Shown here piece after piece: positions 1 through 58,019 of a DNA stretch of 64,000 nt. The stretch's first letter is position 1. Every line of letters begins with the position of its first letter. Source of the DNA: a virus; IMG/VR virus record IMGVR_UViG_3300048996_000163, positions 32,001 through 96,000 of that record; one strand, 5' to 3'. Both the position numbers and the translations under genes were made by a program. Under the pieces are notes generated by a model. The model was given only the letters and a program-made list of their open reading frames with translations. It was not told the origin of the DNA and made no database searches.

Positions 1-24
1 CGCCGACCGAACCTCGTCGACGCG

Positions 25-3527: not shown

Positions 3528-5804
3528 GTGCTCGCATTGGGCCGCTCCCGTACCCGTCGCCGCCCGATCGTCGCCGTCGAGTCAGCCTCCTCCGGTGACC
3601 TGACCCGCGCGATCAACAACCTGGAGCTGGCCGAACGCCGGCTTACCGACGGGCGCCTCGACCCGCTCCGCGAGTCGACGTCGGAGCTTGAGCAGCGCCT
3701 GTACGACCCGGGCTGGCGCCGCTTCACCGTCGAGGTGGAGCAGGAGTTCACCGACGACGGCCGCCGGCAGATGCGGTCCGTGTGCCGCCTCATGTCGATC
3801 GTCAACCCGCTGCTGGTCAGAGGGGTCGGTCTCCGCTCGGCGTACATCCACTCCGGTGGCGTCCAGCGCACGGCCCGCGCCAACGGTAAAGACGACGCCA
3901 ACGAGCAGGACGTCCAGGCTGTCGTCGCCGCGTTCCTGACCGACGAGGGCAACGCCCGCTCCTTCACGAGCCCAGCCGCCCGCGACCGGCTGGAGCATTC
4001 CCTCGCCACCGACGGCGAACTCTTCGTCGCGTTGATCACCCGCCCGTTGACCGGCGAGGTCCAGACCCGCGTCATCCTCGCCGACGAAATCGCGGACATC
4101 ATCTGCAACCCCGAGGACCGCACCGAACACTGGTACTACAAGCGCTGCTGGACGGAACGGCAGTACGCCAAGGACGGCACCCCGACCGACGTGCCGCAGG
4201 AGATGCTGTACCCCGCTGTCGACTACCGTCCGGCCCGCCGCTTCCGCCAGTTCGCCGGCATGCCGGTCGCGTGGGACAAGCCGGTCCTGCACATTGCCGT
4301 GAACCGCCCCGAGCACTGGTTGCACGGCATTCCCGACGTGTACAGCGCGATCAACTGGGCCAGGGCCTACAAGACGTTCCTCGAACAGTGGGCGACCGTC
4401 ATGGCGGCCCTGTCGAAGTACGCGTGGAGAACCACGGCCGCCGGTTCGAAGCAGGCGAAACAGATCCGCTCCGCCGTCACGGCGGCGAACCCGTACCGTC
4501 CCGAGACGGCGGGACCCGGCGACCTTGGCCAGATGGTCGTCACTGCCGCCGACCAGACCCTCGAGGCGATCCCGAAGTCCGGCGCGACAATCGACGCCGA
4601 GTCCGGCCGGCCCCTGGCGATGATGGCCGCCGCCGCACTCGGCATCCCGGTGACGATGCTCCTCAGCGACCCGGGCCAGACCGGTGCCCGCGCGGTCGCG
4701 GAGACCCTGGATCAGCCGACCGAGCTGACGATGAACCAGCGCCGTGAGGTGTGGACGGCCGCCGACGACCGGATCCTCCGCTACGTGATCGCTGAGGCGG
4801 TCCGAGCACCGAAGGGCCCGCTCAAGGGCAGGATCACGCGGGACCGCTTTCGTGACCGCGAGGTGGTTGAGCTCGACGGCGACACCGACCCGACGGTCGA
4901 CATCGTCTGGCCGGACCTGTCGGACACGACCGTCAAGGAGAAGATCGACGCGATCGTCTCCGCGGCCGGCACCGGTACGCTCCCGCCCGAGCTTGTCCTG
5001 CGACTGGTCCTCGCCGCGATCGGTGTTCGTAACGCTGACGCGATCATCGCGGAGATGGTCAAGGACGGTGTATTCCTGTGGCCGTCGACCGGCCCCGCGC
5101 CCGGCGCAACAACCGGTGTCATTCCATCCGACGGTACCGTCGACGGCCAAGGACTCCCGGCGGGCGCGGGCATGCCGGATCAGAACCCGGCCCAGCCTGG
5201 TCAGCTCGCCGCCGCCGCGGTCGAGCACGCGGCGTCCGGTGCCTGGTCCGCCCTCGACGCTGACGCTGCCTCGCTCGCCGCTGCCGCCCAGGCGGACGCC
5301 GTCCCTGCCGGCGACCTGCCTGCGTGGTGGGCGGACGCGGACGCTGTCGACGACGACTGGCGTGTGGATGCCGCGCTCGCTCGCGGCGCTGACATCGCGG
5401 AAGCGTACGGCTCGCAGCACGCCGGCGACGACGAGGATGCGTTGCGCCGCGGGTATGACATCCTCACGGCCGAGGCTCAGCTCACCGGCGGGCAGGCGCC
5501 GACCTTCGAAGTGTTCGCCGCTGCTGCTCGTGCGGCCGGGGAGTACACGCCGACGGTCCAGATCGACAACCGGGTCGTCGCGACCGCGGTGCGTGTCGGG
5601 TCGTACGCGGCGACCGTCGGCGACCCGATCACCACCTGCCCGTACCAGGGTGCGGACCCCGGTCAGGCGGCGCTGCGCAGGGTGTGGCTGAGCGCTTACC
5701 TGCGCATCCGGCCCGCGGGCCCGGCCGTGGCACGTGACGCTGCGGCTTCTTCCGACGCCGAGTCTCCGGCCTCGACCGAGGATGCAGGTGACGGCCGTGG
5801 CTAA
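3528..5804 (+). CDS. Portal protein with long C-terminal extension
   Basis: Follows TerL; DGELF, GIPDVYSAINWARAYK and GIPVTMLLSDPG motifs; low-complexity tail ends in an Rmf/CrpP-like motif. Confidence 0.85.
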   Translation: MLALGRSRTRRRPIVAVESASSGDLTRAINNLELAERRLTDGRLDPLRESTSELEQRLYDPGWRRFTVEVEQEFTDDGRRQMRSVCRLMSIVNPLLVRGVGLRSAYIHSGGVQRTARANGKDDANEQDVQAVVAAFLTDEGNARSFTSPAARDRLEHSLATDGELFVALITRPLTGEVQTRVILADEIADIICNPEDRTEHWYYKRCWTERQYAKDGTPTDVPQEMLYPAVDYRPARRFRQFAGMPVAWDKPVLHIAVNRPEHWLHGIPDVYSAINWARAYKTFLEQWATVMAALSKYAWRTTAAGSKQAKQIRSAVTAANPYRPETAGPGDLGQMVVTAADQTLEAIPKSGATIDAESGRPLAMMAAAALGIPVTMLLSDPGQTGARAVAETLDQPTELTMNQRREVWTAADDRILRYVIAEAVRAPKGPLKGRITRDRFRDREVVELDGDTDPTVDIVWPDLSDTTVKEKIDAIVSAAGTGTLPPELVLRLVLAAIGVRNADAIIAEMVKDGVFLWPSTGPAPGATTGVIPSDGTVDGQGLPAGAGMPDQNPAQPGQLAAAAVEHAASGAWSALDADAASLAAAAQADAVPAGDLPAWWADADAVDDDWRVDAALARGADIAEAYGSQHAGDDEDALRRGYDILTAEAQLTGGQAPTFEVFAAAARAAGEYTPTVQIDNRVVATAVRVGSYAATVGDPITTCPYQGADPGQAALRRVWLSAYLRIRPAGPAVARDAAASSDAESPASTEDAGDGRG

Positions 5805-7515
5805 GGGGCACCCGTCGTCGTGCGCGACCGCCGAACTCGGGTCCGTCTGTCACTGCGAATGTGCCGGTGTCCGGCACTCGTGGCTCGGCGGCAGCGTCCC
5901 GTCTGCGGTGAAAGCCCCGCAGGGTGGCTTGCCTGCTGTGAACGGCGCGAACGTCGCGCAGACGGCCGGCGGCCTGGGTGGGCTGAGCGGGGAGAAGCCT
6001 CCGCCGCCAGTGTCTCCGACCGAACCGGCTACGCCGGCCGAGCCCGCGGCAGAGCCGCAGCAGGCGACACCGTCAGACGAAGCCCCTGCGGACGGGCCGA
6101 GCGTCGATACGCTCACCGGCGACGCCGTGCGCAACGCCGCCCCGCTCAGCTGGGTCCGGAACCAAGCCGACCTCACCGACGAGCAGCACCTGGGTCTCGA
6201 CGAGTACCGGCGCGCCGGTTACCGGCCGATCAACCACCTGCTCCGCGGCGGTGACGCCGACGGCCTGGCCGATTTCTACGTCGACGAGGCCGAGGTTCAG
6301 GGCTGGATCGGCGGCATCGACTCGGCGATGGAATCGTCCCCGCTGGCCGACGACGTCATCGTCTGGCGCGGTCACCGCAATGGGCCGCGAATGTTCGGCG
6401 ACAGCTTCAGCGGCGACCTGACCGGCATCGAATGGCGCGAGGCCGCGTTCGTGTCAACGTCGTCGGACGAGACGGTCGCGACCGGGTTCGCCCGCGAGCA
6501 CTCGACGACCAGCACGCCCGCCGGTTCAGTGGTGATGCGGCTCGTCACCCCAGCAGGTACGGGCGCGGTTGAACTGTCCGACGGGTCGTACGAGTCGGAG
6601 ATGCTCCTGGATCGCGGCCACCGCTACCGGGTGGTCGCGGACCGTGGTGTCGACGGCGACGGTGTCCGCCAACTGGATGTGGAGGTCCTCCCGCGTGACG
6701 ACCGCACGGAAGACACCGAAGAAGACGGCGCGGGCGGGTCCGACGTCGGCGAGGGAGCGTCAGGCGGGGAACTACCGGCCGCCGATCCTGGCCCCGCCGA
6801 AGGGCGGCCCGATCCCGACGTGGGTGGAGGCGACTCCGCCGAAGGCCTGACCGGTCCGGCCGCCGATGACCGCCCCTACCACGAACGTGTCGACGAAGCC
6901 CTCACCGAGGTCGAGGCCCGCACGTCGCCGCCGCTGTCCCGGATGCGTGAAGGCGCCCGCGCGCTGACCGACGACGAGCGGGAACTCGTCGAGGAGTACA
7001 TGGGCGAGGGCTTCCTACCGATCAACCATGTGCTCCGCGGCGGTGACCCCTCGGCACTGGAACGCTGGGACCGGCGCGACCGCGGCTACGACCTGACCCC
7101 AGAGGTCATCGACAGCTGGACCGGCGCCCTCGACGCGTTGATGGCGGAATCCCACCTGCCGCAGCCGATCATCACGTGGCGTGGAATGCGCAACGGCGAC
7201 ACCCTGTTCGGCGACTCATTCGGCGATGATCTGACCGGCGCCGAATGGTCCGACCCGGCGTACTCGTCGACGTCGACGGACGAAGATGAAGCTGTCGCGT
7301 TCGCGCAGGACCAGATCGGCAACGCCGTGCCGGGGTCGACGGTGATGCACATCCTGGTGCCGTCCGGCACGGGTGCGCTGGAGCTGTCCGACCACAACTA
7401 CGAGTCCGAGGTGCTGCTGGAGCGGGGCCTGCGGTTCCGGGTCGTGACCGACTGGGGCATCAACGACAACGGCGTCCGCGTCCTCGACGTGGAGGTGATC
7501 CCCGATGGCAGTTGA
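5797..7515 (+). CDS. Tandem VIP2-like ADP-ribosyltransferase (two R-S-ExE domains)
   Basis: Domain 1 YRPINHLLRG/VWRG/FVSTS/YESEMLL; domain 2 FLPINHVLRG/TWRG/YSSTS/YESEVLL; GTG start overlaps portal end. Confidence 0.88.
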   Translation: MAKGHPSSCATAELGSVCHCECAGVRHSWLGGSVPSAVKAPQGGLPAVNGANVAQTAGGLGGLSGEKPPPPVSPTEPATPAEPAAEPQQATPSDEAPADGPSVDTLTGDAVRNAAPLSWVRNQADLTDEQHLGLDEYRRAGYRPINHLLRGGDADGLADFYVDEAEVQGWIGGIDSAMESSPLADDVIVWRGHRNGPRMFGDSFSGDLTGIEWREAAFVSTSSDETVATGFAREHSTTSTPAGSVVMRLVTPAGTGAVELSDGSYESEMLLDRGHRYRVVADRGVDGDGVRQLDVEVLPRDDRTEDTEEDGAGGSDVGEGASGGELPAADPGPAEGRPDPDVGGGDSAEGLTGPAADDRPYHERVDEALTEVEARTSPPLSRMREGARALTDDERELVEEYMGEGFLPINHVLRGGDPSALERWDRRDRGYDLTPEVIDSWTGALDALMAESHLPQPIITWRGMRNGDTLFGDSFGDDLTGAEWSDPAYSSTSTDEDEAVAFAQDQIGNAVPGSTVMHILVPSGTGALELSDHNYESEVLLERGLRFRVVTDWGINDNGVRVLDVEVIPDGS

Positions 7516-52211: not shown

Positions 52212-52388
52212 ATGGCCGACCAGCAGCGCGACACCCAGGGTGACGTCGTCGACGAGCGCGGCGTGCTCATCACCGCCGCCGGCCGCAAGCGGATGCGGGC
52301 GAAGATGGACGAGGTCATGAACCGTTGGACCCCCGAAGAGCGGGAACAGCGCCGCCTGGCCGCCCTCGCGCGTATCACCGCGGCGTGA
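52212..52388 (+). CDS. Putative antitoxin-like small protein
   Basis: MADQQ...GVLITAAGRKRMRAKMDE; GTGA overlap with PIN gene. Confidence 0.55.
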   Translation: MADQQRDTQGDVVDERGVLITAAGRKRMRAKMDEVMNRWTPEEREQRRLAALARITAA

Positions 52389-52768
52389 CCGAAGCGCAGT
52401 TCACGCTCGACACCACAGCGGTCCTCGCGTACGTCGCCGGGTCGCACGGCCTCGGTGAGCTCCTCGGTGAGGTCGCCGACGAGAAAGCCCGGTTCGCGGT
52501 GCCCGCCATCTGCCTCGTCGAGGCTGCGACGATGCTCGAGGATGTCGCCTGGCCGATGCTGGACCTGCTCGCCGGGCACCCGAACGCGGTGCTCGTGTCG
52601 CTGGACGGGACGCAGTGGCGGAGTCATGCCGCGTCGGCGCTCGTGTACGGCGGGGTCGGGTCGGGTGCGGCGGCGCTGCTTTTCGTGCAGGAACGCGTCT
52701 GGTATGTGGCGACCTGCGACCCGGCGATCTACGGGGATGGGATCGACACGGTCGCGATCGAGGACTGA
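52385..52768 (+). CDS. PIN-like (VapC-type) protein
   Basis: FTLDTTAVLAY...VPAICLVEA...VATCDP. Confidence 0.65.
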   Translation: MTEAQFTLDTTAVLAYVAGSHGLGELLGEVADEKARFAVPAICLVEAATMLEDVAWPMLDLLAGHPNAVLVSLDGTQWRSHAASALVYGGVGSGAAALLFVQERVWYVATCDPAIYGDGIDTVAIED

Positions 52769-53058
52769 TCTCGCACTTCGGGCACCTCGACCCCGTCCAC
52801 GTCGCCCCGGGCCAGCTGCCCGTACACCGCCTCAGACCACGCTCCGAGCGCCCGCCGATGCTCCTTGCACCCGTGGGTGCCCTCGTACCACAGGACGACA
52901 AGCAGTTCGTGCCGGGTGAGGTCGTAGTCGGCGCAGACCGCCGCCTCATCCCGTTCCGCGAGGTACAGGCCGGCGATCGCGTCGGTGGAGATGCCGCGCA
53001 GGTGCGGGCCGCCGAAGCGCATGCCCGGTTCTGTGCGGATGACGGGGCGGTTGGTCAC
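52729..53058 (-). CDS. DUF433-like protein
   Basis: I..EPGMRFGGP.L.GI....I......V.ADYDLT. Confidence 0.65.
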   Translation of the reverse strand: MTNRPVIRTEPGMRFGGPHLRGISTDAIAGLYLAERDEAAVCADYDLTRHELLVVLWYEGTHGCKEHRRALGAWSEAVYGQLARGDVDGVEVPEVRDQSSIATVSIPSP

Positions 53059-53071
53059 AGCTACCAGTGTC

Positions 53072-53590
53072 CTACCGCAGGGTGCCGCGCAGTTCGGCCG
53101 GCACGTGCTCCTTCGAGCAGTAGCCGATGCCACCCGCGACGAGAGTCATGGCCTCAACGCAGCCGCGGTGGGCGCACCGTTCGGTGGCCGGCGCTGGGTA
53201 GCTGATCGCGAGCCCCGGAACCTCCATGGCGACCCGCGCGACGACCGCCCGATGCCACGACGCCGGCCACGGCTGGTCGGGATGAGCCGCGTGGTATTCG
53301 TCGTCGTTGCGGTAGGTGAGAACCGTGGCGTCGACGGGCGCGGCGTTGAGCTTCTCGACGATGCCGTCGACGAACTCTGCGGTCCGCTGCTCGAGGTCTT
53401 CGAGTTCGAGGCGGACACCGTCGGGGATCGGGTAGCGGCCTTGTTCCCAGCTGCGGACGGTGCGCGGGTTGATGCCGAGGTGTCCGGCGAGCCAGTCACC
53501 GGTCAGGCCGAGGTGTTCGCGGACGACGCGGAACTCGGCGTCGGTCATGCGTTCGTCGTCGGGCATGCCGGGCGGGTCGGTGTATTCCAT
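53072..53590 (-). CDS. Aca2/YdiL (DUF1870)-like HTH regulator
   Basis: MTDAEF..VRE.LGL....A.HLG...R....WEQGR..IPDGV..EL.DL...L.Y...DEY.A.HPD...W matches the Aca2 pattern as recalled; core starts at 53548. Confidence 0.8.
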   Translation of the reverse strand: MEYTDPPGMPDDERMTDAEFRVVREHLGLTGDWLAGHLGINPRTVRSWEQGRYPIPDGVRLELEDLEQRTAEFVDGIVEKLNAAPVDATVLTYRNDDEYHAAHPDQPWPASWHRAVVARVAMEVPGLAISYPAPATERCAHRGCVEAMTLVAGGIGYCSKEHVPAELRGTLR

Positions 53591-53648
53591 GGTGGGGCTC
53601 CGGAAACGGTGCGACCCCGGCACGTGGCCGGGGTCGTGGTGGGTGAGG

Positions 53649-53864
53649 TCAGTTGGCGTGGCGCTCGACGATGGTCCAGAACTCGTCGTCGCTGACGGTC
53701 TGCTCGAACCCGGCGGTGTTGAGGAGTTCCTGGCCTTTGTCGTTGGTGTCGACGCGGTACTCGAATGCGTCGACGAAGATAGCTTCGACGTTGTAGTCCG
53801 CGGGCTCGTCGAGGGCGGGGAGGACGGCCTGCTCGATGGCGTCTTCGCGGGTGGTGTAGCGCAT
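53649..53864 (-). CDS. 71-aa acidic protein, candidate anti-CRISPR/anti-defence protein
   Basis: First gene behind a strong promoter, directly upstream of the aca2-like gene; D/E-rich. Confidence 0.6.
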   Translation of the reverse strand: MRYTTREDAIEQAVLPALDEPADYNVEAIFVDAFEYRVDTNDKGQELLNTAGFEQTVSDDEFWTIVERHAN

Positions 53865-53916
53865 GTCCGGTTCCTTCCGGCTGAGTCTGGGGCCTGCTCC
53901 CCTGACCAACACCTGA

Positions 53917-53945
53917 AGACTAGCGCCCTAAATTAGGGTGCACAA
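53917..53945 (-). promoter_or_regulatory. Promoter with palindromic operator in the spacer
   Basis: TTGTGC-N17-TAGTCT; spacer contains CCCTAA-T-TTAGGG. Confidence 0.75.
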
Positions 53946-54104
53946 GGCTGTCACTCGGACGAGGTTGCTTCCCGCCGCCATTCCCGCTCCTCCCGCCGCC
54001 GCTGCGACTTCTTGCCCCGCGCCGTCGACGTGCAGTCCGGCCCGGCCGGCCCGTGGCAGTAAGGGCACCACTCCCGCTGGCACACGCCGAGCATCCGGGC
54101 CACG

Positions 54105-54440
54105 TCAGCCTGCCTCCACCCGGTGCCCGCACTGCTCCTGCATCGGCGACCCGGCCCACTGCCGGTACAGCCACTCCCGGTCAAGCTTCCCGTTGACGTG
54201 CGTGGAGGACTTCATGCCCTCTTCCCATTCGCGCAGGAGCGGTTCAAGGACGCCCTGCCGGTCGAGGTACAGCAGCGCGCCGCACGGGGCGCAGCAGGAC
54301 GGGCAGCAGCCCCAGATGTCGTCGCCCTCATCGCGTGGCTGGAAGTCCGACGCGTACCAGACCTGCGACAGGGCGTGGTGGGCGAGCATCGCGTACGCCT
54401 CGACGCGCGACGTCGGCGACTGCGGCAGGGTGAGGGTCAC
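54105..54440 (-). CDS. Cys-rich hypothetical protein
   Basis: VTLTLP start; GCCPSCCAPC; coupled. Confidence 0.5.
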   Translation of the reverse strand: MTLTLPQSPTSRVEAYAMLAHHALSQVWYASDFQPRDEGDDIWGCCPSCCAPCGALLYLDRQGVLEPLLREWEEGMKSSTHVNGKLDREWLYRQWAGSPMQEQCGHRVEAG

Positions 54441-54649
54441 GTCGTCTCCCCCGCCGCCGCCCGCACCGCCGCGATGAACTCCTCGACCTTGTCCGGCGGC
54501 AGGTATCCGTCGTACGGTCCGACGCTGATCGCGACCCACCCGTCGGGGGCGGACTCAACAGTGATCGTCTCGCGCTGCTCGCCGAGTGGCCAGCCGCCCT
54601 CAGGCTCGATCGGGTACTGCCACAGCTCCGACATCGCCGCCTCCATCAA
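54437..54649 (-). CDS. Hypothetical protein
   Basis: GGAGG before MSELW; coupled to downstream gene. Confidence 0.5.
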   Translation of the reverse strand: MMEAAMSELWQYPIEPEGGWPLGEQRETITVESAPDGWVAISVGPYDGYLPPDKVEEFIAAVRAAAGETT

Positions 54650-54871
54650 GGACCGTCACACCCCATTGTCGCAGGCCACGGGGTTTCGGTCATTGACCGG
54701 TGGGGCGTTTCGGAAGTTGCTCATCAAGGAAACGTGCCTGTCTGTGCATCATTCGCACACGCCCCGCAACCACGGCCGCCGGGCGGGTACAGGCTTCGCG
54801 GGCCGGTGCGCACCGGGTGGCTTCCGCCGGGACCACCGCCTCCGCAGCACGGCAGGTGCGCGCCGGCCCAA

Positions 54872-55060
54872 CTACAGCGTGAAGCCTTTGCCAGGATCGT
54901 ATTGCGCGCCGATGGTCGGGTCGTTCGCGTTGCCGGACTCGTTCTTCGCCGGCGTGACGAGCGTGTCGTCCGTCGACAGCAGGTCGTCGACTGAATGGTC
55001 GCTCGTGTCGACGTGCTCGATCTTCGGGAGGGGTTCCTTCGGGGCTTCATCGTCGGCCAT
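54872..55060 (-). CDS. 62-aa acidic peptide
   Basis: MADDEAPKEPLP...YDPGKGFTL. Confidence 0.45.
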   Translation of the reverse strand: MADDEAPKEPLPKIEHVDTSDHSVDDLLSTDDTLVTPAKNESGNANDPTIGAQYDPGKGFTL

Positions 55061-55097
55061 GCATCGACCATGCCACGCGCAACGCGGGGTGCACAGC

Positions 55098-55135
55098 ACG
55101 AAGCCCGGCAGCCGTGTGACTGCCGGGCTCTTGTG
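55098..55135. terminator. Hairpin downstream of the Ro60 gene
   Basis: AGCCCGGCAG-N8-CTGCCGGGCT. Confidence 0.65.
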
Positions 55136-55142
55136 TCTGACC

Positions 55143-56726
55143 CTAGAAAGGCCAGGCGCCGTCGATCCCGCGTTCGATCAGCGGAATCATGCGGAGTCCT
55201 GCGTCGGTGAGCCCGCCGAACGCCCACCGGTTCCGGTCCGACGGCGCGTGCCCCATCCGGTAGCCGGCGAGGTTCCAGGTGAACATCGGCACCGAAGCCG
55301 GGATCACCGCGCCTGGGTCGCCGTCGTACGAGGTCTGCTCGTCGGTGAGGATCACTACCCGGTCGTGCTTCGCGAAATGCGCCCGGACCGCGGTCGCCGT
55401 GTACGTGCCACCGCCACGGAAGTGGCCTTCCTGCCGCCAGCGCTCCAGCGATCGCAGCAGCGACTCGCCGCGGTGCAGGTTGAACACGGACGTGCGTCCG
55501 TCGTAGGCGATGACGTCGGCGTGCGCGCACCGCTGGGCGAGCGCCACACCGAAGATCGTCGCAGCGTCCCACCGGCGCAGGGTGCCGTCCTTGGAGAACA
55601 CGTCGTTCATCGACCCGGACACGTCGACCATGACGAGGGTGCGGCCCGGCAACTCGGCGATGTTCGCGAGGCAGTGCCCAAGCGCCTGCTCCAGCGGGTA
55701 CGACCAGCGAAGCGACGGCGCCGCCCGGTACGCGGACAGGAACCGCATCGGCAGCTGCCTGGACTTCGCGACCTGCTCCGGGTCGGCGATGCGCGCGGCA
55801 ACGGTCGCGGCGACCTCGTCGGAGACGCCGGCCTCGTCGAAGTTGCGCAGGTTCCGCAGGAGCGCCATGTACCCCATCGACGGGATCAGCGAGGTCCACA
55901 GCTTCGCCTTGTCGACCTTCGACCCGGCGAGCGACAGCACGTCCTCCCACGTCATGCCCGCCTCGCGGAGCCGGTCGGCGTCGAGCAGGACGGACGGCTC
56001 CCGCTCGGCCTGGAGGCGCAGCAGCGAGTTCGCGGCTAGCATCGGCAGTGACGTCGGGAACTCCACCTCGCGGCCGTGACGGCGGTCGAGCGCCTGCTTG
56101 AACAGGTCACCCTGCCATGCGAGTTCCGCAGTCGGGTGGACGAGGTCGAGCACGTCACCGAACCGGAAGCCCTTCGACGCGGTGTCGTACTTGAGCAGGT
56201 TCCGCTCGGTGTACAGCCGCTGCACCCCGTCGGCGATGCCCCGCTTCACCGGCTTCGGCACCTTCCGGCCGTACCGCGACAGCCAGTAGGCGAGCATCTC
56301 GCCCGGCTCGTCGGCGCGCTGCAGCACGGACGCGACCACGGCCCGGTTCTTCGCGTGGTCGGGGAGTGCCTGGTCGCCGCCGCCGAGGGTGAGCCGTCCG
56401 CGGACGTACTCGGCGGCGCCGACGATCGCGGCGGTCCGCATGTTCGCCGACCCGCGTAGCCAGCCGAGGAACCGGGCCGCCCAGCCGGGGTCCTCGACGG
56501 CGAGCCGCTGGACGAGCTCGACGAAACGGGAGTCGCGGTCGCCGGACTTCTCGTAGAAGGTGTCCTCGCCGACCATGTTGGTCACGGCCAGGAGAAAAAG
56601 TTCGGACTTCACGTCCCGCGTGTAGCCGGCGGCACCCTCGTGGGTCACGCCGGTCGGGCGCTGCTCGGTCGCGATGGGGCCGGTTCCGGATGCTGCACGG
56701 ACACCGACCTGGTTGAACTTGGACAT
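55143..56726 (-). CDS. rsr: Ro60/Rsr TROVE-domain RNA-binding protein with vWA domain
   Basis: ELFLLAV...DTFYE, ANMRTA, QRADEPGE, TWE..LS, MGYMALLRNLRNF, KSRQLPMRF; MIDAS DVSGSM...ILTDEQ. Confidence 0.95.
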   Translation of the reverse strand: MSKFNQVGVRAASGTGPIATEQRPTGVTHEGAAGYTRDVKSELFLLAVTNMVGEDTFYEKSGDRDSRFVELVQRLAVEDPGWAARFLGWLRGSANMRTAAIVGAAEYVRGRLTLGGGDQALPDHAKNRAVVASVLQRADEPGEMLAYWLSRYGRKVPKPVKRGIADGVQRLYTERNLLKYDTASKGFRFGDVLDLVHPTAELAWQGDLFKQALDRRHGREVEFPTSLPMLAANSLLRLQAEREPSVLLDADRLREAGMTWEDVLSLAGSKVDKAKLWTSLIPSMGYMALLRNLRNFDEAGVSDEVAATVAARIADPEQVAKSRQLPMRFLSAYRAAPSLRWSYPLEQALGHCLANIAELPGRTLVMVDVSGSMNDVFSKDGTLRRWDAATIFGVALAQRCAHADVIAYDGRTSVFNLHRGESLLRSLERWRQEGHFRGGGTYTATAVRAHFAKHDRVVILTDEQTSYDGDPGAVIPASVPMFTWNLAGYRMGHAPSDRNRWAFGGLTDAGLRMIPLIERGIDGAWPF

Positions 56727-56767
56727 GAGAAAAGGCCCCTTCCGCACCGGGAGGAGCCTGCTTCAGT

Positions 56768-56910
56768 TGCGAGTGCCCGAGATCAAGGTCGGGAGCGGTA
56801 TGAGTGCCTTTGCTCTGCCATCTGAGCTACCGGCGTCGAAACGCCGAGCAGGAATTGAACCTGCGACCCAAGGATTAGAAGTAACCGCCACCTGCGCACC
56901 GGGCACCGCA
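56768..56910 (-). ncRNA. yrlA: YrlA-type tRNA-like Y RNA
   Basis: Terminal stem GUGCCCGGUGCGCAGG / CCUUGAUCUCGGGCAC; T arm GCAGGUUCAAUUCCUGC precedes closed stem CGGCGU-UUCG-ACGCCG and D arm GUAGCUCAGAUGGCAGAGC; adjacent to rsr. Confidence 0.88.
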
Positions 56911-56927
56911 TCTGAAGTTGTAGGCCG

Positions 56928-56993
56928 CTCCCGAGATCAATGTGCCAGCGGTGTTTTTCGCAGAAGAAGTAACCGCTGGCGGCGCACCGGGAG
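56928..56993 (-). ncRNA. Second, minimal Y RNA
   Basis: CUCCCGGUGCGC...UUGAUCUCGGGAG Ro-binding stem and shared GCGGUUACUUCU motif, no tRNA-like domain. Confidence 0.8.
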
Positions 56994-57065
56994 ATGCTCG
57001 GGTCACGCTAGCAGGCTCGGATCCGCAGTGCCACGCGATTCACTCGCAAGCCGTCGATGCCACAC

Positions 57066-57605
57066 CTACCTCGCGTGGTCGTGCGCCTTCACCGTCGCGT
57101 CGAGCACCGGCACGTCGACCGGCCGACTGCCGCGCTTCACGTCGTGGGCGACCGCGGCCTGCTCGGCGAGGTGCACGGCGGCGTCGACGAGCTTGCGGAG
57201 GGCGTCGCGGTCGCGGTCGCTGATGCCGGAGTCGGGGTGCAGCCAGGCGTCGACCTGCTGGCCGGGGGTGAGGCCACCGCCGAGCATCGGGGGCGGGTCG
57301 GTGCCGGCCTGGTGCATCCCGGCGCCGTACTTCGCCGCATCCTCGGGAACGTAGATGACCTGCGTGCCGGGCGCGGGCGGATCTCCACCGTCGAGGATCG
57401 ACCGCACAGCTCCCGGTGGCCACTGGAGCGCCTTCTCCAGCTTGGCAATCAGCGAGTCCCGATAGCCCTTCTCTTCGCCCCGTTCGAGCTCGCCGACAGT
57501 CCGTGAGCCGATGCCGGCCATGGCGGCGAAGTCGTCGCGCCGGTCGTAACCGAGTTCGACACGTCGCGACGTTATGGCTCTGCCGAGTGCTGCCCATTCC
57601 CCCAC
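57066..57605 (-). CDS. Immunity repressor-like Xre protein
   Basis: LGRAITSRRVELGY...FAAMAGIGSRTVGELERG...LEKALQWPPG. Confidence 0.82.
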   Translation of the reverse strand: MGEWAALGRAITSRRVELGYDRRDDFAAMAGIGSRTVGELERGEEKGYRDSLIAKLEKALQWPPGAVRSILDGGDPPAPGTQVIYVPEDAAKYGAGMHQAGTDPPPMLGGGLTPGQQVDAWLHPDSGISDRDRDALRKLVDAAVHLAEQAAVAHDVKRGSRPVDVPVLDATVKAHDHAR

Positions 57606-57671
57606 GCGGCCAATGCTGCCAGCGGGCGCACGTATGTGCCAGCACCGTCGGGCGACCAGCCGTCCGGCGGC

Positions 57672-57700
57672 TTGCCAAAGCGCACGTAACTGCCTATAGT
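57672..57700 (+). promoter_or_regulatory. Rightward promoter for leaderless cro
   Basis: TTGCCA-N17-TATAGT, ATG 7 nt downstream. Confidence 0.75.
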
Positions 57701-57707
57701 TGCCAGT

Positions 57708-57944
57708 ATGCGCACACGCACCGGCATCACAGTGAACGGCCACGCCGTTCGTGCACTGCGCGACGCGCTCGGATTCGACATCCCGACGTTCGCCAAGGCG
57801 GTCGGCGTCAGCGTCCCGTTCATGTCGCGCATCGAACGCAACAAGCGGCAGCCGTCCCCGATGGTCCGCGCCCGCATGGTCGCCGTCCTCGGCGTTCCGC
57901 TGAACGCGATCACCATCCACCCCGACGAGCTCGAAGCCGCCTGA
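57708..57944 (+). CDS. Cro-like HTH protein
   Basis: VRALRDALG....FAKAVGVSVPFMSRIERNKRQPS. Confidence 0.85.
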   Translation: MRTRTGITVNGHAVRALRDALGFDIPTFAKAVGVSVPFMSRIERNKRQPSPMVRARMVAVLGVPLNAITIHPDELEAA

Positions 57945-58019
57945 CCCCAGAAACAGACCGACCCGGCCAGTGGTCGCCACCACTTGTCGGCCGGGTCCTA
58001 ATCGGGAGGGAACCCCGAA

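What the first reader, a model, noticed from the sequence alone, without database searches (positions are those of the whole stretch)
53072..53945. Candidate acr-aca2 operon with a new 71-aa anti-CRISPR
Seen: a near-consensus promoter with a palindrome filling the spacer, a small acidic ORF (MRYTTREDAIEQ...DDEFWTIVERHAN), a 10-bp-stem hairpin at 53612-53636, then an Aca2-like HTH gene. Known: Aca2 represses acr promoters through inverted repeats, and Acrs are small, often acidic DNA mimics found by association with aca genes. Inference: an uncharacterised Acr or other anti-defence protein for actinomycete systems.
Basis: partly seen in the sequence, partly recalled or inferred. Interest (0 to 1): 0.8.

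Follow-up and report, generated by a model that had tools for sequence, protein, structure and literature searches.

The report
Aca2-controlled phage operon, unknown acidic cargo
A soil actinomycete phage carries a small self-repressing operon of an already published type (an Aca2 repressor with its DNA operator and folded RNA leader) that drives a 71-residue very acidic protein of unknown function, a reasonable but untested candidate inhibitor of bacterial immunity.

Summary
It comprises a promoter with a palindrome in its 17-nt spacer, a 71-aa acidic gene, a 10-bp hairpin and an HTH gene. The HTH is a true Aca2/YdiL (DUF1870) protein: it passes Pfam's cut-off, and its only PDB sequence matches are Aca2 structures.

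The same chassis recurs in Streptomyces phage Gilgamesh, 7 IMG/VR loci and 36 of 45 actinomycete genome loci. The chassis is promoter, palindrome, two-hairpin leader holding the ribosome site, cargo, intercistronic hairpin and Aca2. The leader hairpins show compensatory base changes.

The cargo slot changes. I sorted 45 operons into 11 groups, 10 of them acidic. None of the 11 representatives scanned has a Pfam family. The window's cargo is related to two other groups, and together the three fill 21 of 45 slots.

The design is known: the ZF40 acrIF8-aca2 operon, and an Aca2 'actino-motif' cited in NAR 2026. This scan met it before on other DNA (notes e1-5842377, e1-3312223 and others).

No target of the cargo is shown. 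It has no relative among known Acrs, defence models or solved folds. 'Anti-CRISPR' is therefore guilt by association. A toxin-antitoxin pair is unlikely.

The parts
53940..53945 (-). -35 hexamer TTGTGC
   Evidence: Read. TTG(C/T)(G/A)N stands at the same alignment columns in 8 of 9 related loci, and in 40 of 42 loci by regex. The E. coli-type scan did not call it.
53923..53939 (.). 17-nt promoter spacer filled by the operator-like palindrome (core CCCTAAATTAGGG at 53926-53938)
   Evidence: a single copy in the whole genome. Related loci keep a palindrome here but with other half-sites (TTCC, GTCC, GTCG), changed on both arms. The half-site type tracks one residue of the HTH recognition helix (by eye).
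53917..53922 (-). -10 hexamer TAGTCT (TANNNT type)
53884..53907 (-). leader hairpin 1 (GGTC-A-GGGG / loop / CCCC-A-GACT)
   Evidence: It appears in the MFE fold of all 9 leaders. Compensatory changes: 9 sequences, 95.2% paired, 5 pairs changed on both sides, 0 of 500 shuffles; 38 new sequences, 98.8% paired, 14 cells changed on both sides, 0 of 500.
53867..53880 (-). leader hairpin 2 (CCGG / AAGGAA / CCGG) with the Shine-Dalgarno sequence in its loop, ending 2 nt before the ATG
   Evidence: Helix 2 is 100% and 99.3% paired, with CG-to-UA changes on both sides. First noted in e1-6148191.
53649..53864 (-). cargo gene: 71-aa acidic protein (family A)
   Evidence: AlphaFold model: pLDDT 91.3, helix-helix-strand-strand-helix. 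No known family or fold.
53612..53636 (-). intercistronic 10-bp GC-rich hairpin, no T-run after it
   Evidence: A strong hairpin stands at the same place in 9 of 9 loci with different sequences (z -1.97 to -4.53). The terminator scan did not call it.
53072..53590 (-). aca2-like gene: 172-aa Aca2/YdiL-family HTH with a 38-aa Cys/His-bearing C-terminal extension

Best explanation
This is a self-repressing two-gene operon of the acr-aca2 type in a 132.7-kb actinomycete phage.

When the DNA enters a cell that holds no repressor, the promoter fires and the 71-aa acidic cargo is made first.

The GC-rich hairpin between the genes probably lowers or delays expression of the second gene. That step is inferred.

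The second gene encodes an Aca2-family helix-turn-helix protein. As a dimer it would bind the palindrome between -35 and -10 and shut the promoter. The operator assignment rests on comparative sequence evidence here. Binding itself is inferred from the ZF40 Aca2 experiments.

By analogy with published Aca2 work, it may also bind the two leader hairpins, one of which carries the ribosome site, and so block translation. The RNA structure is shown here by covariation. Binding is inferred.

The cargo is an accessory protein in an exchangeable slot. It is most likely an inhibitor of a host defence or another host nucleic-acid-binding protein, acting by binding it. Its target is unknown. CRISPR-Cas is only one possibility.
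For: Aca2 membership:
- PF08965 scores 29.8 bits against a cut-off of 23.8.
- The only PDB sequence matches are Aca2 entries 8w35, 7vjo, 7b5j and 7ezy, at E 1.1e-6 to 1.8e-5 over residues 15-107.
- tblastn finds ZF40 gp30 at 30.4% identity.
- 660 relatives at E<=1e-10; among those that carry a source name, several are named DUF1870 or Aca2/YdiL-like and the rest more generally.

Conserved chassis:
- The window, Gilgamesh gp86-gp87 and 7 IMG/VR loci have HTHs 58-76% identical. All 9 show leader, cargo, hairpin and HTH. 8 of 9 show the promoter with palindrome directly upstream; L013 has it one gene further up.
- A covariance model of the region finds it upstream, on the same strand, in 36 of 45 actinomycete genome loci.
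- RNA covariation is given.

Operator:
- Palindromes change on both arms between loci.
- In RTVR[x]WE, x is H in 26 of 28 loci read with TTCC half-sites. It is S, S, N in the 3 read with CCC half-sites, and R in the 3 read with GTC half-sites (by eye).

Exchangeable acidic cargo:
- I sorted 45 operons by eye into 11 groups. Ten of the groups are acidic, each member with at least 10 more D+E than K+R. The eleventh (L062) pairs one acidic ORF with one that is not.
- Family D is unrelated to the window's family (hhalign probability 0.3).
- None of the 11 representatives scanned has a Pfam family.

Published precedent:
- Aca2 represses through an inverted repeat that blocks -35/-10 (PMC6765145, passages read).
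- Aca2 binds two 5'UTR hairpins to block the ribosome site, with an 'actino-motif' described (PMC13551039, sections 18 and 23 and passages read).
Against: - No function of the cargo is shown. It has no similarity to any known Acr, anti-defence or defence-related family or to a solved fold (best VIA-align Z 4.6; Foldseek best E 0.91).
- The cargo family often occurs without Aca2. Of 6 IMG/VR loci with a homologue, 1 has an Aca2-like HTH next to it and 1 more has the promoter-leader motif. Of 8 metagenome loci, none has either. Three of those have under 250 nt downstream, and one repeats an IMG/VR contig.
- The slot is not random. The window's family is related to two other groups: hhalign probability 94.6 for group F and 83.4 for group B. 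The three together fill 21 of 45 slots. Family D fills 17, counting 4 fusions of F with a D-like domain. That pattern could also mean a dedicated function rather than interchangeable inhibitors.
- Pfam's Aca2_YdiL family is named after YdiL as well as Aca2; that YdiL is an E. coli chromosomal protein unlinked to any Acr is recalled, not checked. Membership does not prove an acr locus.
- The host, and whether it has CRISPR-Cas, is unknown.
- I could not read the Nature 2024 paper or any supplement, so identity of this leader with the published 'actino-motif' is unverified.
Confidence: 0.6

Rival explanations
1. The regulation is as described, but the cargo is not an anti-defence protein. It is another early or accessory factor whose dose must be limited: a host-takeover protein, a superinfection-exclusion factor, or part of the phage's own programme. 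In that case Aca2-type regulators in actinophages are general tight switches.
For: Two cargo superfamilies dominate the slot and are sometimes fused. Family A homologues also sit among head genes (L008) and other contexts without Aca2. PMC13551039 (section 23) itself says most Aca-regulated genes are unannotated.
Against: The slot holds at least 11 groups. Family D is unrelated to the window's family by profile comparison. The relations among the other groups were judged by eye and by a lenient BLAST clustering. Ten of the 11 groups are small and strongly acidic. This fits the exchange pattern reported for acr-aca loci (PMC9765179, abstract read). In this genome the locus is about 50 kb from the head and tail genes.
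Confidence: 0.25
2. The acidic protein is a partner of the HTH, an anti-repressor or co-regulator, and the pair forms a regulatory switch of the phage.
For: The two genes are adjacent and co-transcribed. Families A, F and B share a C-terminal motif (FW-IVE-H) that could be a common docking surface.
Against: HTH proteins that stay 58-76% identical over the aligned part, C-terminal domain included, sit behind cargos with no detectable similarity to family A, such as family D. Family A homologues are common without any Aca2 neighbour.
Confidence: 0.1
3. A type II toxin-antitoxin pair of the MqsRA/HigBA layout: toxin first, HTH antitoxin second.
For: The gene order and autoregulatory palindrome are the same. 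Weak sub-threshold hits of the HTH to antitoxin models: TIGR03830 MqsA at 20.1 bits against a cut-off of 61.8, and Xre-like-HTH at E 0.037. The Bipper homologue is annotated 'Antitoxin'.
Against: The upstream protein is strongly acidic (17 D+E against 5 K+R) and matches no toxin family. It is replaced by proteins with no detectable similarity to it next to closely related HTHs, which a cognate toxin-antitoxin pair would not tolerate. The HTH's best matches are Aca2, above Pfam's cut-off.
Confidence: 0.05

Closest known systems
acrIF8-aca2 operon of Pectobacterium phage ZF40 (Aca2; PDB 7b5j, 7vjo, 8w35)
   Same: A small gene is followed by an Aca2-family HTH. An inverted repeat lies within the -35/-10 region. 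The 5'UTR is structured, with hairpins at the ribosome site (PMC6765145 passages; PMC13551039 passages).
   Different: Identity is only 30.4%. The half-sites differ: the ZF40 core is TTCG-N6-CGAA according to PMC6765145, and here it is CCCTAA-N-TTAGGG. tblastn of the cargo against the phage collection, which holds ZF40, found nothing. There is an added Cys/His C-terminal tail and a strong intercistronic hairpin.
Aca2 'actino-motif' operons (Birkholz et al., Nature 2024, as cited in PMC13551039)
   Same: [quoted passage not shown] Leader-only copies stand between genes of one operon, seen here in L013, L034 and L047.
   Different: I could not read that paper or any supplement. Whether my two-hairpin motif is the published one, and whether this cargo is among the 450 genes listed as Aca1/Aca2-regulated, is unverified.
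Streptomyces phage Gilgamesh gp86-gp87 (MN234216)
   Same: The HTH is 60.8% identical. Promoter architecture, leader, ribosome site and intercistronic hairpin are the same.
   Different: The cargo is an acidic 107-aa protein of another group. The operator is an even palindrome with TTCCAAA half-sites. The HTH has no C-terminal tail.
MqsRA / HigBA type II toxin-antitoxin operons
   Same: A small gene lies upstream of an HTH that represses its own promoter through palindromes. Aca2 was first modelled on MqsA (PMC6765145, methods passage).
   Different: The cargo is acidic, matches no toxin family, and is exchanged between loci.

Membership tests
Aca2/YdiL (Pfam PF08965, DUF1870) | Score above Pfam's gathering cut-off | tested here: met
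   29.8 bits against a cut-off of 23.8, residues 17-106 on profile positions 2-93 of 118. Precomputed PF08965 on the same protein and on most relatives.
Aca2/YdiL (Pfam PF08965, DUF1870) | Sequence similarity to experimentally characterised Aca2 over the HTH and the following domain | tested here: met
   The four PDB sequences found at E<=0.01 are all Aca2: E 1.1e-6 to 1.8e-5, query residues 15-107 on chain residues 5-97 of 120. It aligns with ZF40 gp30 along the whole common length.
Aca2/YdiL (Pfam PF08965, DUF1870) | [quoted passage not shown] | not testable with these tools
   Sequence evidence only. There is a palindrome in the spacer in the window and in 40 of 42 related loci. Half-site type tracks a recognition-helix residue (by eye).
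Aca2 operons with 5'UTR RNA motif ('actino-motif') | Conserved structured RNA with two hairpins between the transcription start and the start codon | tested here: inconclusive
   The two hairpins are supported by covariation. The published motif itself could not be seen, and Rfam 15 has no match here.
Anti-CRISPR (Acr) proteins | Inhibits a CRISPR-Cas system | not testable with these tools
Anti-CRISPR (Acr) proteins | Small protein encoded directly upstream of an aca gene in one operon on a mobile element | tested here: met
   71 aa, 58 nt upstream of the Aca2-like gene, in a virus record.
Anti-CRISPR (Acr) proteins | Relatedness to a known Acr family (not required for an Acr, but the only computable link) | tested here: inconclusive
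   No match in Pfam, PHROGs, PADLOC or NCBIfam, in the PDB by profile, or by fold. No dedicated Acr database was available.
Type II toxin-antitoxin (MqsRA/HigBA layout) | Upstream gene encodes a toxin of a known fold or family | tested here: not met
   No toxin family matched. The protein is acidic.
Type II toxin-antitoxin (MqsRA/HigBA layout) | Cognate pair kept together | tested here: not met
   Eleven upstream gene groups sit next to HTHs of 58-76% identity.

The most novel reading that the evidence does not exclude
The family A/F/B acidic superfamily, to which this 71-aa protein belongs, and the unrelated family D would be the main payloads of a conserved Aca2-guarded slot found across actinomycete phages and prophages (Streptomyces, Actinoplanes, Amycolatopsis, Micromonospora, Nocardia, Mycobacterium). 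On this reading they are the first inhibitors of actinomycete defence systems, CRISPR-Cas or otherwise, to be identified. The slot itself (covariance model R1) would then be a ready probe for harvesting dozens of further such inhibitors.
Probability: 0.35. Interest if true: 0.7.

Novelty: new member of a known kind. Interest (0 to 1): 0.4.

Why it matters
My searches turned up no anti-CRISPR or other anti-defence protein validated for Streptomyces and its relatives (listings and passages only). These bacteria are workhorses of antibiotic discovery and carry many defence systems.

A conserved, easily recognised regulatory chassis that marks candidate inhibitors gives a short list for cloning and testing. 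The list would hold family A/F/B, family D and about seven smaller groups.

The regulatory part adds little that is new. It is a further, well-supported example of the published Aca2 DNA-plus-RNA control design, with clear operator and recognition-helix co-variation.

Tried and rejected
Adjacency of five further cargo/HTH pairs, suggested only by equal contig lengths (1141, 1823, 3725, 9532, 31521), therefore could not be checked and is not used as evidence.
- The first genome-contig scan, with the cargo alignment, found nothing.
- tblastn of the cargo against 50,697 phage records: no match.
- Fold searches of the cargo model: Foldseek against PDB, best E 0.91. VIA-align wide, best Z 4.6, none at 5 or more. 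BFVD returned only uncharacterised phage proteins. The protein atlas returned only 'hypothetical protein' clusters of viruses and Actinomycetota.
- PDB profile searches for families A, B and D: nothing below E 0.47.
- Complex prediction of the HTH (residues 1-135) with the cargo: 'no answer', score 0.00, controls not folded. This is no evidence either way.
- The look-up of sequencing runs: no RNA holder listed; soil metagenome DNA runs only.
- Rfam on 53000-58000: only a sub-threshold YrlA hit outside the finding.
- The Nature 2024 Aca2 paper is not held. Supplements are closed, and those of PMC13551039 may list this very locus or its cargo family.
- Single-linkage BLAST clustering of cargos with lenient settings merged families A, F, B and D into one cluster of 34 through fusion proteins. 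I therefore relied on hhalign and on by-eye grouping. Before that clustering I dropped 28 HTH-like ORFs and 3 arginine-rich wrong-frame ORFs. One further wrong-frame ORF (L050, 639 aa) stayed in as a singleton.
- The 8 HTHs that one search printed in a wrong frame or not at all were left out of the recognition-helix count.

Full report
WHERE IT LIES. The window is bases 32001-96000 of a 132,717-bp IMG/VR virus record. The record has 69.4% G+C and a 127-bp terminal direct repeat. Long plus-strand ORFs that I take, without a family scan, to be head and tail genes fill the first 33 kb of the window. The finding lies on the minus strand among small leftward genes, downstream of a TROVE/Ro60 gene.

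THE OBSERVATION. On the minus strand, in order:
- TTGTGC at 53945-53940.
- A 17-nt spacer holding CCCTAAATTAGGG.
- TAGTCT at 53922-53917.
- A leader with two short hairpins.
- AAGGA, then ATG at 53864.
- A 71-codon ORF ending at 53649.
- A perfect 10-bp hairpin at 53636-53612.
- GGAG, then ATG at 53590.
- A 172-codon ORF ending at 53072.

The small protein has 17 acidic and 5 basic residues. The E. coli-type promoter scan calls nothing here, so 'near-consensus' is too strong. The -10 is of the TANNNT kind. I recall that kind as typical of actinomycetes; it comes from no call.

THE HTH IS Aca2.
- Pfam Aca2_YdiL scores 29.8 bits against a cut-off of 23.8.
- Against all PDB sequences, the only matches at E<=0.01 are four Aca2 sequences.
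- tblastn against 50,697 phage records finds ZF40 gp30 at 30.4% identity. It finds closer copies in Streptomyces phage Gilgamesh (60.8%), Mycobacterium phages, Gordonia phages and Thermobifida phage P1312: 63 records in all.
- In the large protein collection, 660 relatives reach E<=1e-10. Among those that carry a source name, several are named DUF1870 or Aca2/YdiL-like, and the rest helix-turn-helix or XRE-family regulators or hypothetical proteins.
- The window's copy has an extra 38-residue tail. Three Cys and one His in it are conserved in an 81%-identical relative.

THE CARGO IS A REAL, CONSERVED, UNNAMED PROTEIN.
- 33 other proteins at 51-75% identity begin at the same MRYTT and share RVDTD..GNELLNTAGFEQ..FW.IVERH.
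- An exhaustive search gives 108 representatives at E<=0.001, some with the domain fused to other sequence.
- It has no Pfam, PHROG, PADLOC or NCBIfam family.
- AlphaFold with 110 sequences gives pLDDT 91.3 and a helix-helix-strand-strand-helix fold.
- No solved structure resembles it. Only uncharacterised phage proteins do.

THE CHASSIS IS CONSERVED. I fetched seven IMG/VR loci whose HTH is 58-76% identical and the Gilgamesh locus. All nine loci, the window included, share the following:
- the leader hairpin GGTC-A-GGGG...CCCC-A-GACC;
- the hairpin CCGG-AAGGA(A/C)-CCGG, just before the ATG;
- a cargo gene;
- a strong intercistronic hairpin of different sequence in each locus (z -1.97 to -4.53);
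- the HTH gene.

Eight of the nine have the promoter with a palindrome in its spacer directly upstream. L013 has it one gene further up, with a second, leader-only copy before the cargo.

On the nine-sequence alignment, 95.2% of cells pair. Five pairs show changes on both sides, and 0 of 500 shuffles reach that.

I built a covariance model (R1). It finds one copy in the phage's own genome. It finds a copy upstream of the HTH, on the same strand, in 36 of 45 actinomycete genome loci fetched with the HTH alignment. These 38 new sequences pair at 98.8%, with 14 cells changed on both sides, again 0 of 500 shuffles. That alignment is fitted to the model, so it leans towards the structure.

THE OPERATOR. 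TTGNNN-16..18-TANNNT with a palindrome in the spacer is found by regex in 40 of 42 loci, and by eye in the other two. The half-sites differ between loci and change on both arms:
- TTCCTAA / TTAGGAA in most;
- CCCTAA / TTAGGG in the window, L014, L031 and L058;
- GTCC and GTCG in a few.

I read the HTH sequences against these by eye. The residue before the conserved Trp of the recognition helix (RTVR-x-WE) is:
- His in 26 of 28 loci with TTCC half-sites (exceptions: L042 Ala, L059 Asn);
- Ser, Ser, Asn in the three CCC loci read;
- Arg in the three GTC loci read.

Eight loci were not read, because one search printed them in a wrong frame or not at all. The window's HTH is no closer overall to L014 (70%) than to L012 or L013 (76%), which carry TTCC sites. 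Shared descent alone therefore does not explain the match. Relatedness was not otherwise controlled.

THE CARGO SLOT. I sorted 45 operons by eye. Two pairs are probably the same element seen twice.

| Group | Operons | Loci |
|---|---|---|
| A (the window's) | 3 | window; L028, Paractinoplanes deccanensis; L056, Streptomyces sp. JJ66 |
| F, a short form | 3 | L017, L049, L054 |
| F fused to a D-like domain | 4 | L016, L035, L042, L051 |
| B | 11 | L012, L018, L031, L032, L036, L040, L045, L052, L057, L060, L069 |
| D | 13 | L013, L014, L029, L037, L038, L039, L041, L043, L044, L046, L053, L058, L059 |
| Seven smaller groups | 11 | L002, L015, L030, L033, L034, L047, L048, L050, L055, L062, L066 |

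Profile comparison links A to F (probability 94.6, E 6.5e-8) and to B (83.4, E 8.5e-6), but not to D (0.3). Ten of the eleven groups are acidic, each member with at least 10 more D+E than K+R. In the eleventh (L062) one of the two ORFs is not, and L069 has a non-acidic second ORF. A basic 167-172-residue 'first gene' precedes the cargo in seven loci. None of the 11 representatives scanned has a Pfam family.

EVIDENCE AGAINST A TIGHT LINK. Family A homologues are often found without Aca2.
- Of six IMG/VR loci, one (L009, two tandem copies) has a distant Aca2-like HTH, and one (L010) has the R1 motif.
- Of eight metagenome loci, none has either. Three of them are cut within 250 nt, and one repeats an IMG/VR contig.

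WHAT IS KNOWN.
- PMC6765145 (passages read) shows that ZF40 Aca2 binds an inverted repeat that blocks -35/-10.
[quoted passage not shown] It states that 'actino-' and 'proteo-' RNA motifs were defined in Birkholz et al. 2024. It states that RNA motifs also occur between genes of one operon. It states that 450 genes in RefSeq and IMG/VR are predicted to be under Aca1/Aca2 control, fewer than half with assigned functions.
- I could not read the 2024 paper or any supplement.
- PMC9765179 (abstract) reports that the same aca gene commonly recombines with different acr genes.
- My searches for anti-CRISPR with Streptomyces or actinobacteriophage returned nothing that names this cargo (listings, and passages of two papers).
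- This scan has reported the same design on other DNA several times.

VERDICT. The locus is a new member of the published Aca2-controlled operon kind. Its cargo is a conserved, uncharacterised acidic protein. It is a fair candidate inhibitor of a host defence, but nothing yet points to CRISPR, or to defence at all, beyond association. A toxin-antitoxin reading is unlikely.

Noticed in passing
window 53072-53190 (-): The Aca2-like protein has a 38-residue C-terminal tail that is absent from the other close homologues aligned. Three Cys and one His in it are conserved in an 81%-identical relative, P0141, so it may be a small metal-binding add-on. The tail overlaps, in another frame, the start of ORF 52729-53133(-).
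   Followed up: partly
window 52729-53133 (-): The ORF just downstream of the operon has a weak, sub-threshold DUF433 match: E 0.008, 16.4 bits against a cut-off of 23.6. Two convergent plus-strand ORFs (52212-52388 and 52325-52768) have no family.
   Followed up: no
window 55143-56872 (-): A TROVE/Ro60 gene (PF05731, E 1e-18) has a sub-threshold YrlA-like RNA just upstream at 56808-56872: 36.8 bits against a gathering score of 69. Ro-like genes are annotated in several Streptomyces, Gordonia and Arthrobacter phages. L007 carries a Ro60-like ORF near its family A gene.
   Followed up: partly
L013 1216-1817; L034 308-901; L047 390-995; L052, L053, L055, L058: In seven loci the Aca2-type promoter and leader drive an extra first gene. 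It is a basic 167-172-residue protein with no Pfam or NCBIfam family. A second, leader-only copy of the RNA motif then precedes the acidic cargo, where detected (L013, L034, L047). Part of this protein looks, by eye only, like the N-terminal part of P0039, whose C-terminus is a family A domain.
   Followed up: partly
L016/L051, L035, L042; P0041: Cargo domains are fused. The short family-A-like domain (F), or family A itself in P0041, is joined to a D-like C-terminal domain.
   Followed up: partly
L002 (Gilgamesh) 3863-6660: In Gilgamesh the cargo-Aca2 pair sits between the annotated small-terminase gene (gp85) and lysin A (gp88). In this window it is about 50 kb from the head genes.
   Followed up: no
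L009 2840-3957: A 59% G+C phage contig has two tandem family-A-like genes and a distant (29%) Aca2-like HTH. They lie behind a promoter whose spacer holds a different palindrome, with a hairpin between the first two genes.
   Followed up: partly
L004 (Thermobifida phage P1312) 2004-2118: The R1 motif matches at 40.8 bits, with what looks like a duplicated first leader hairpin. The match ends inside the annotated start of P1312_045, which suggests a later true start codon.
   Followed up: no
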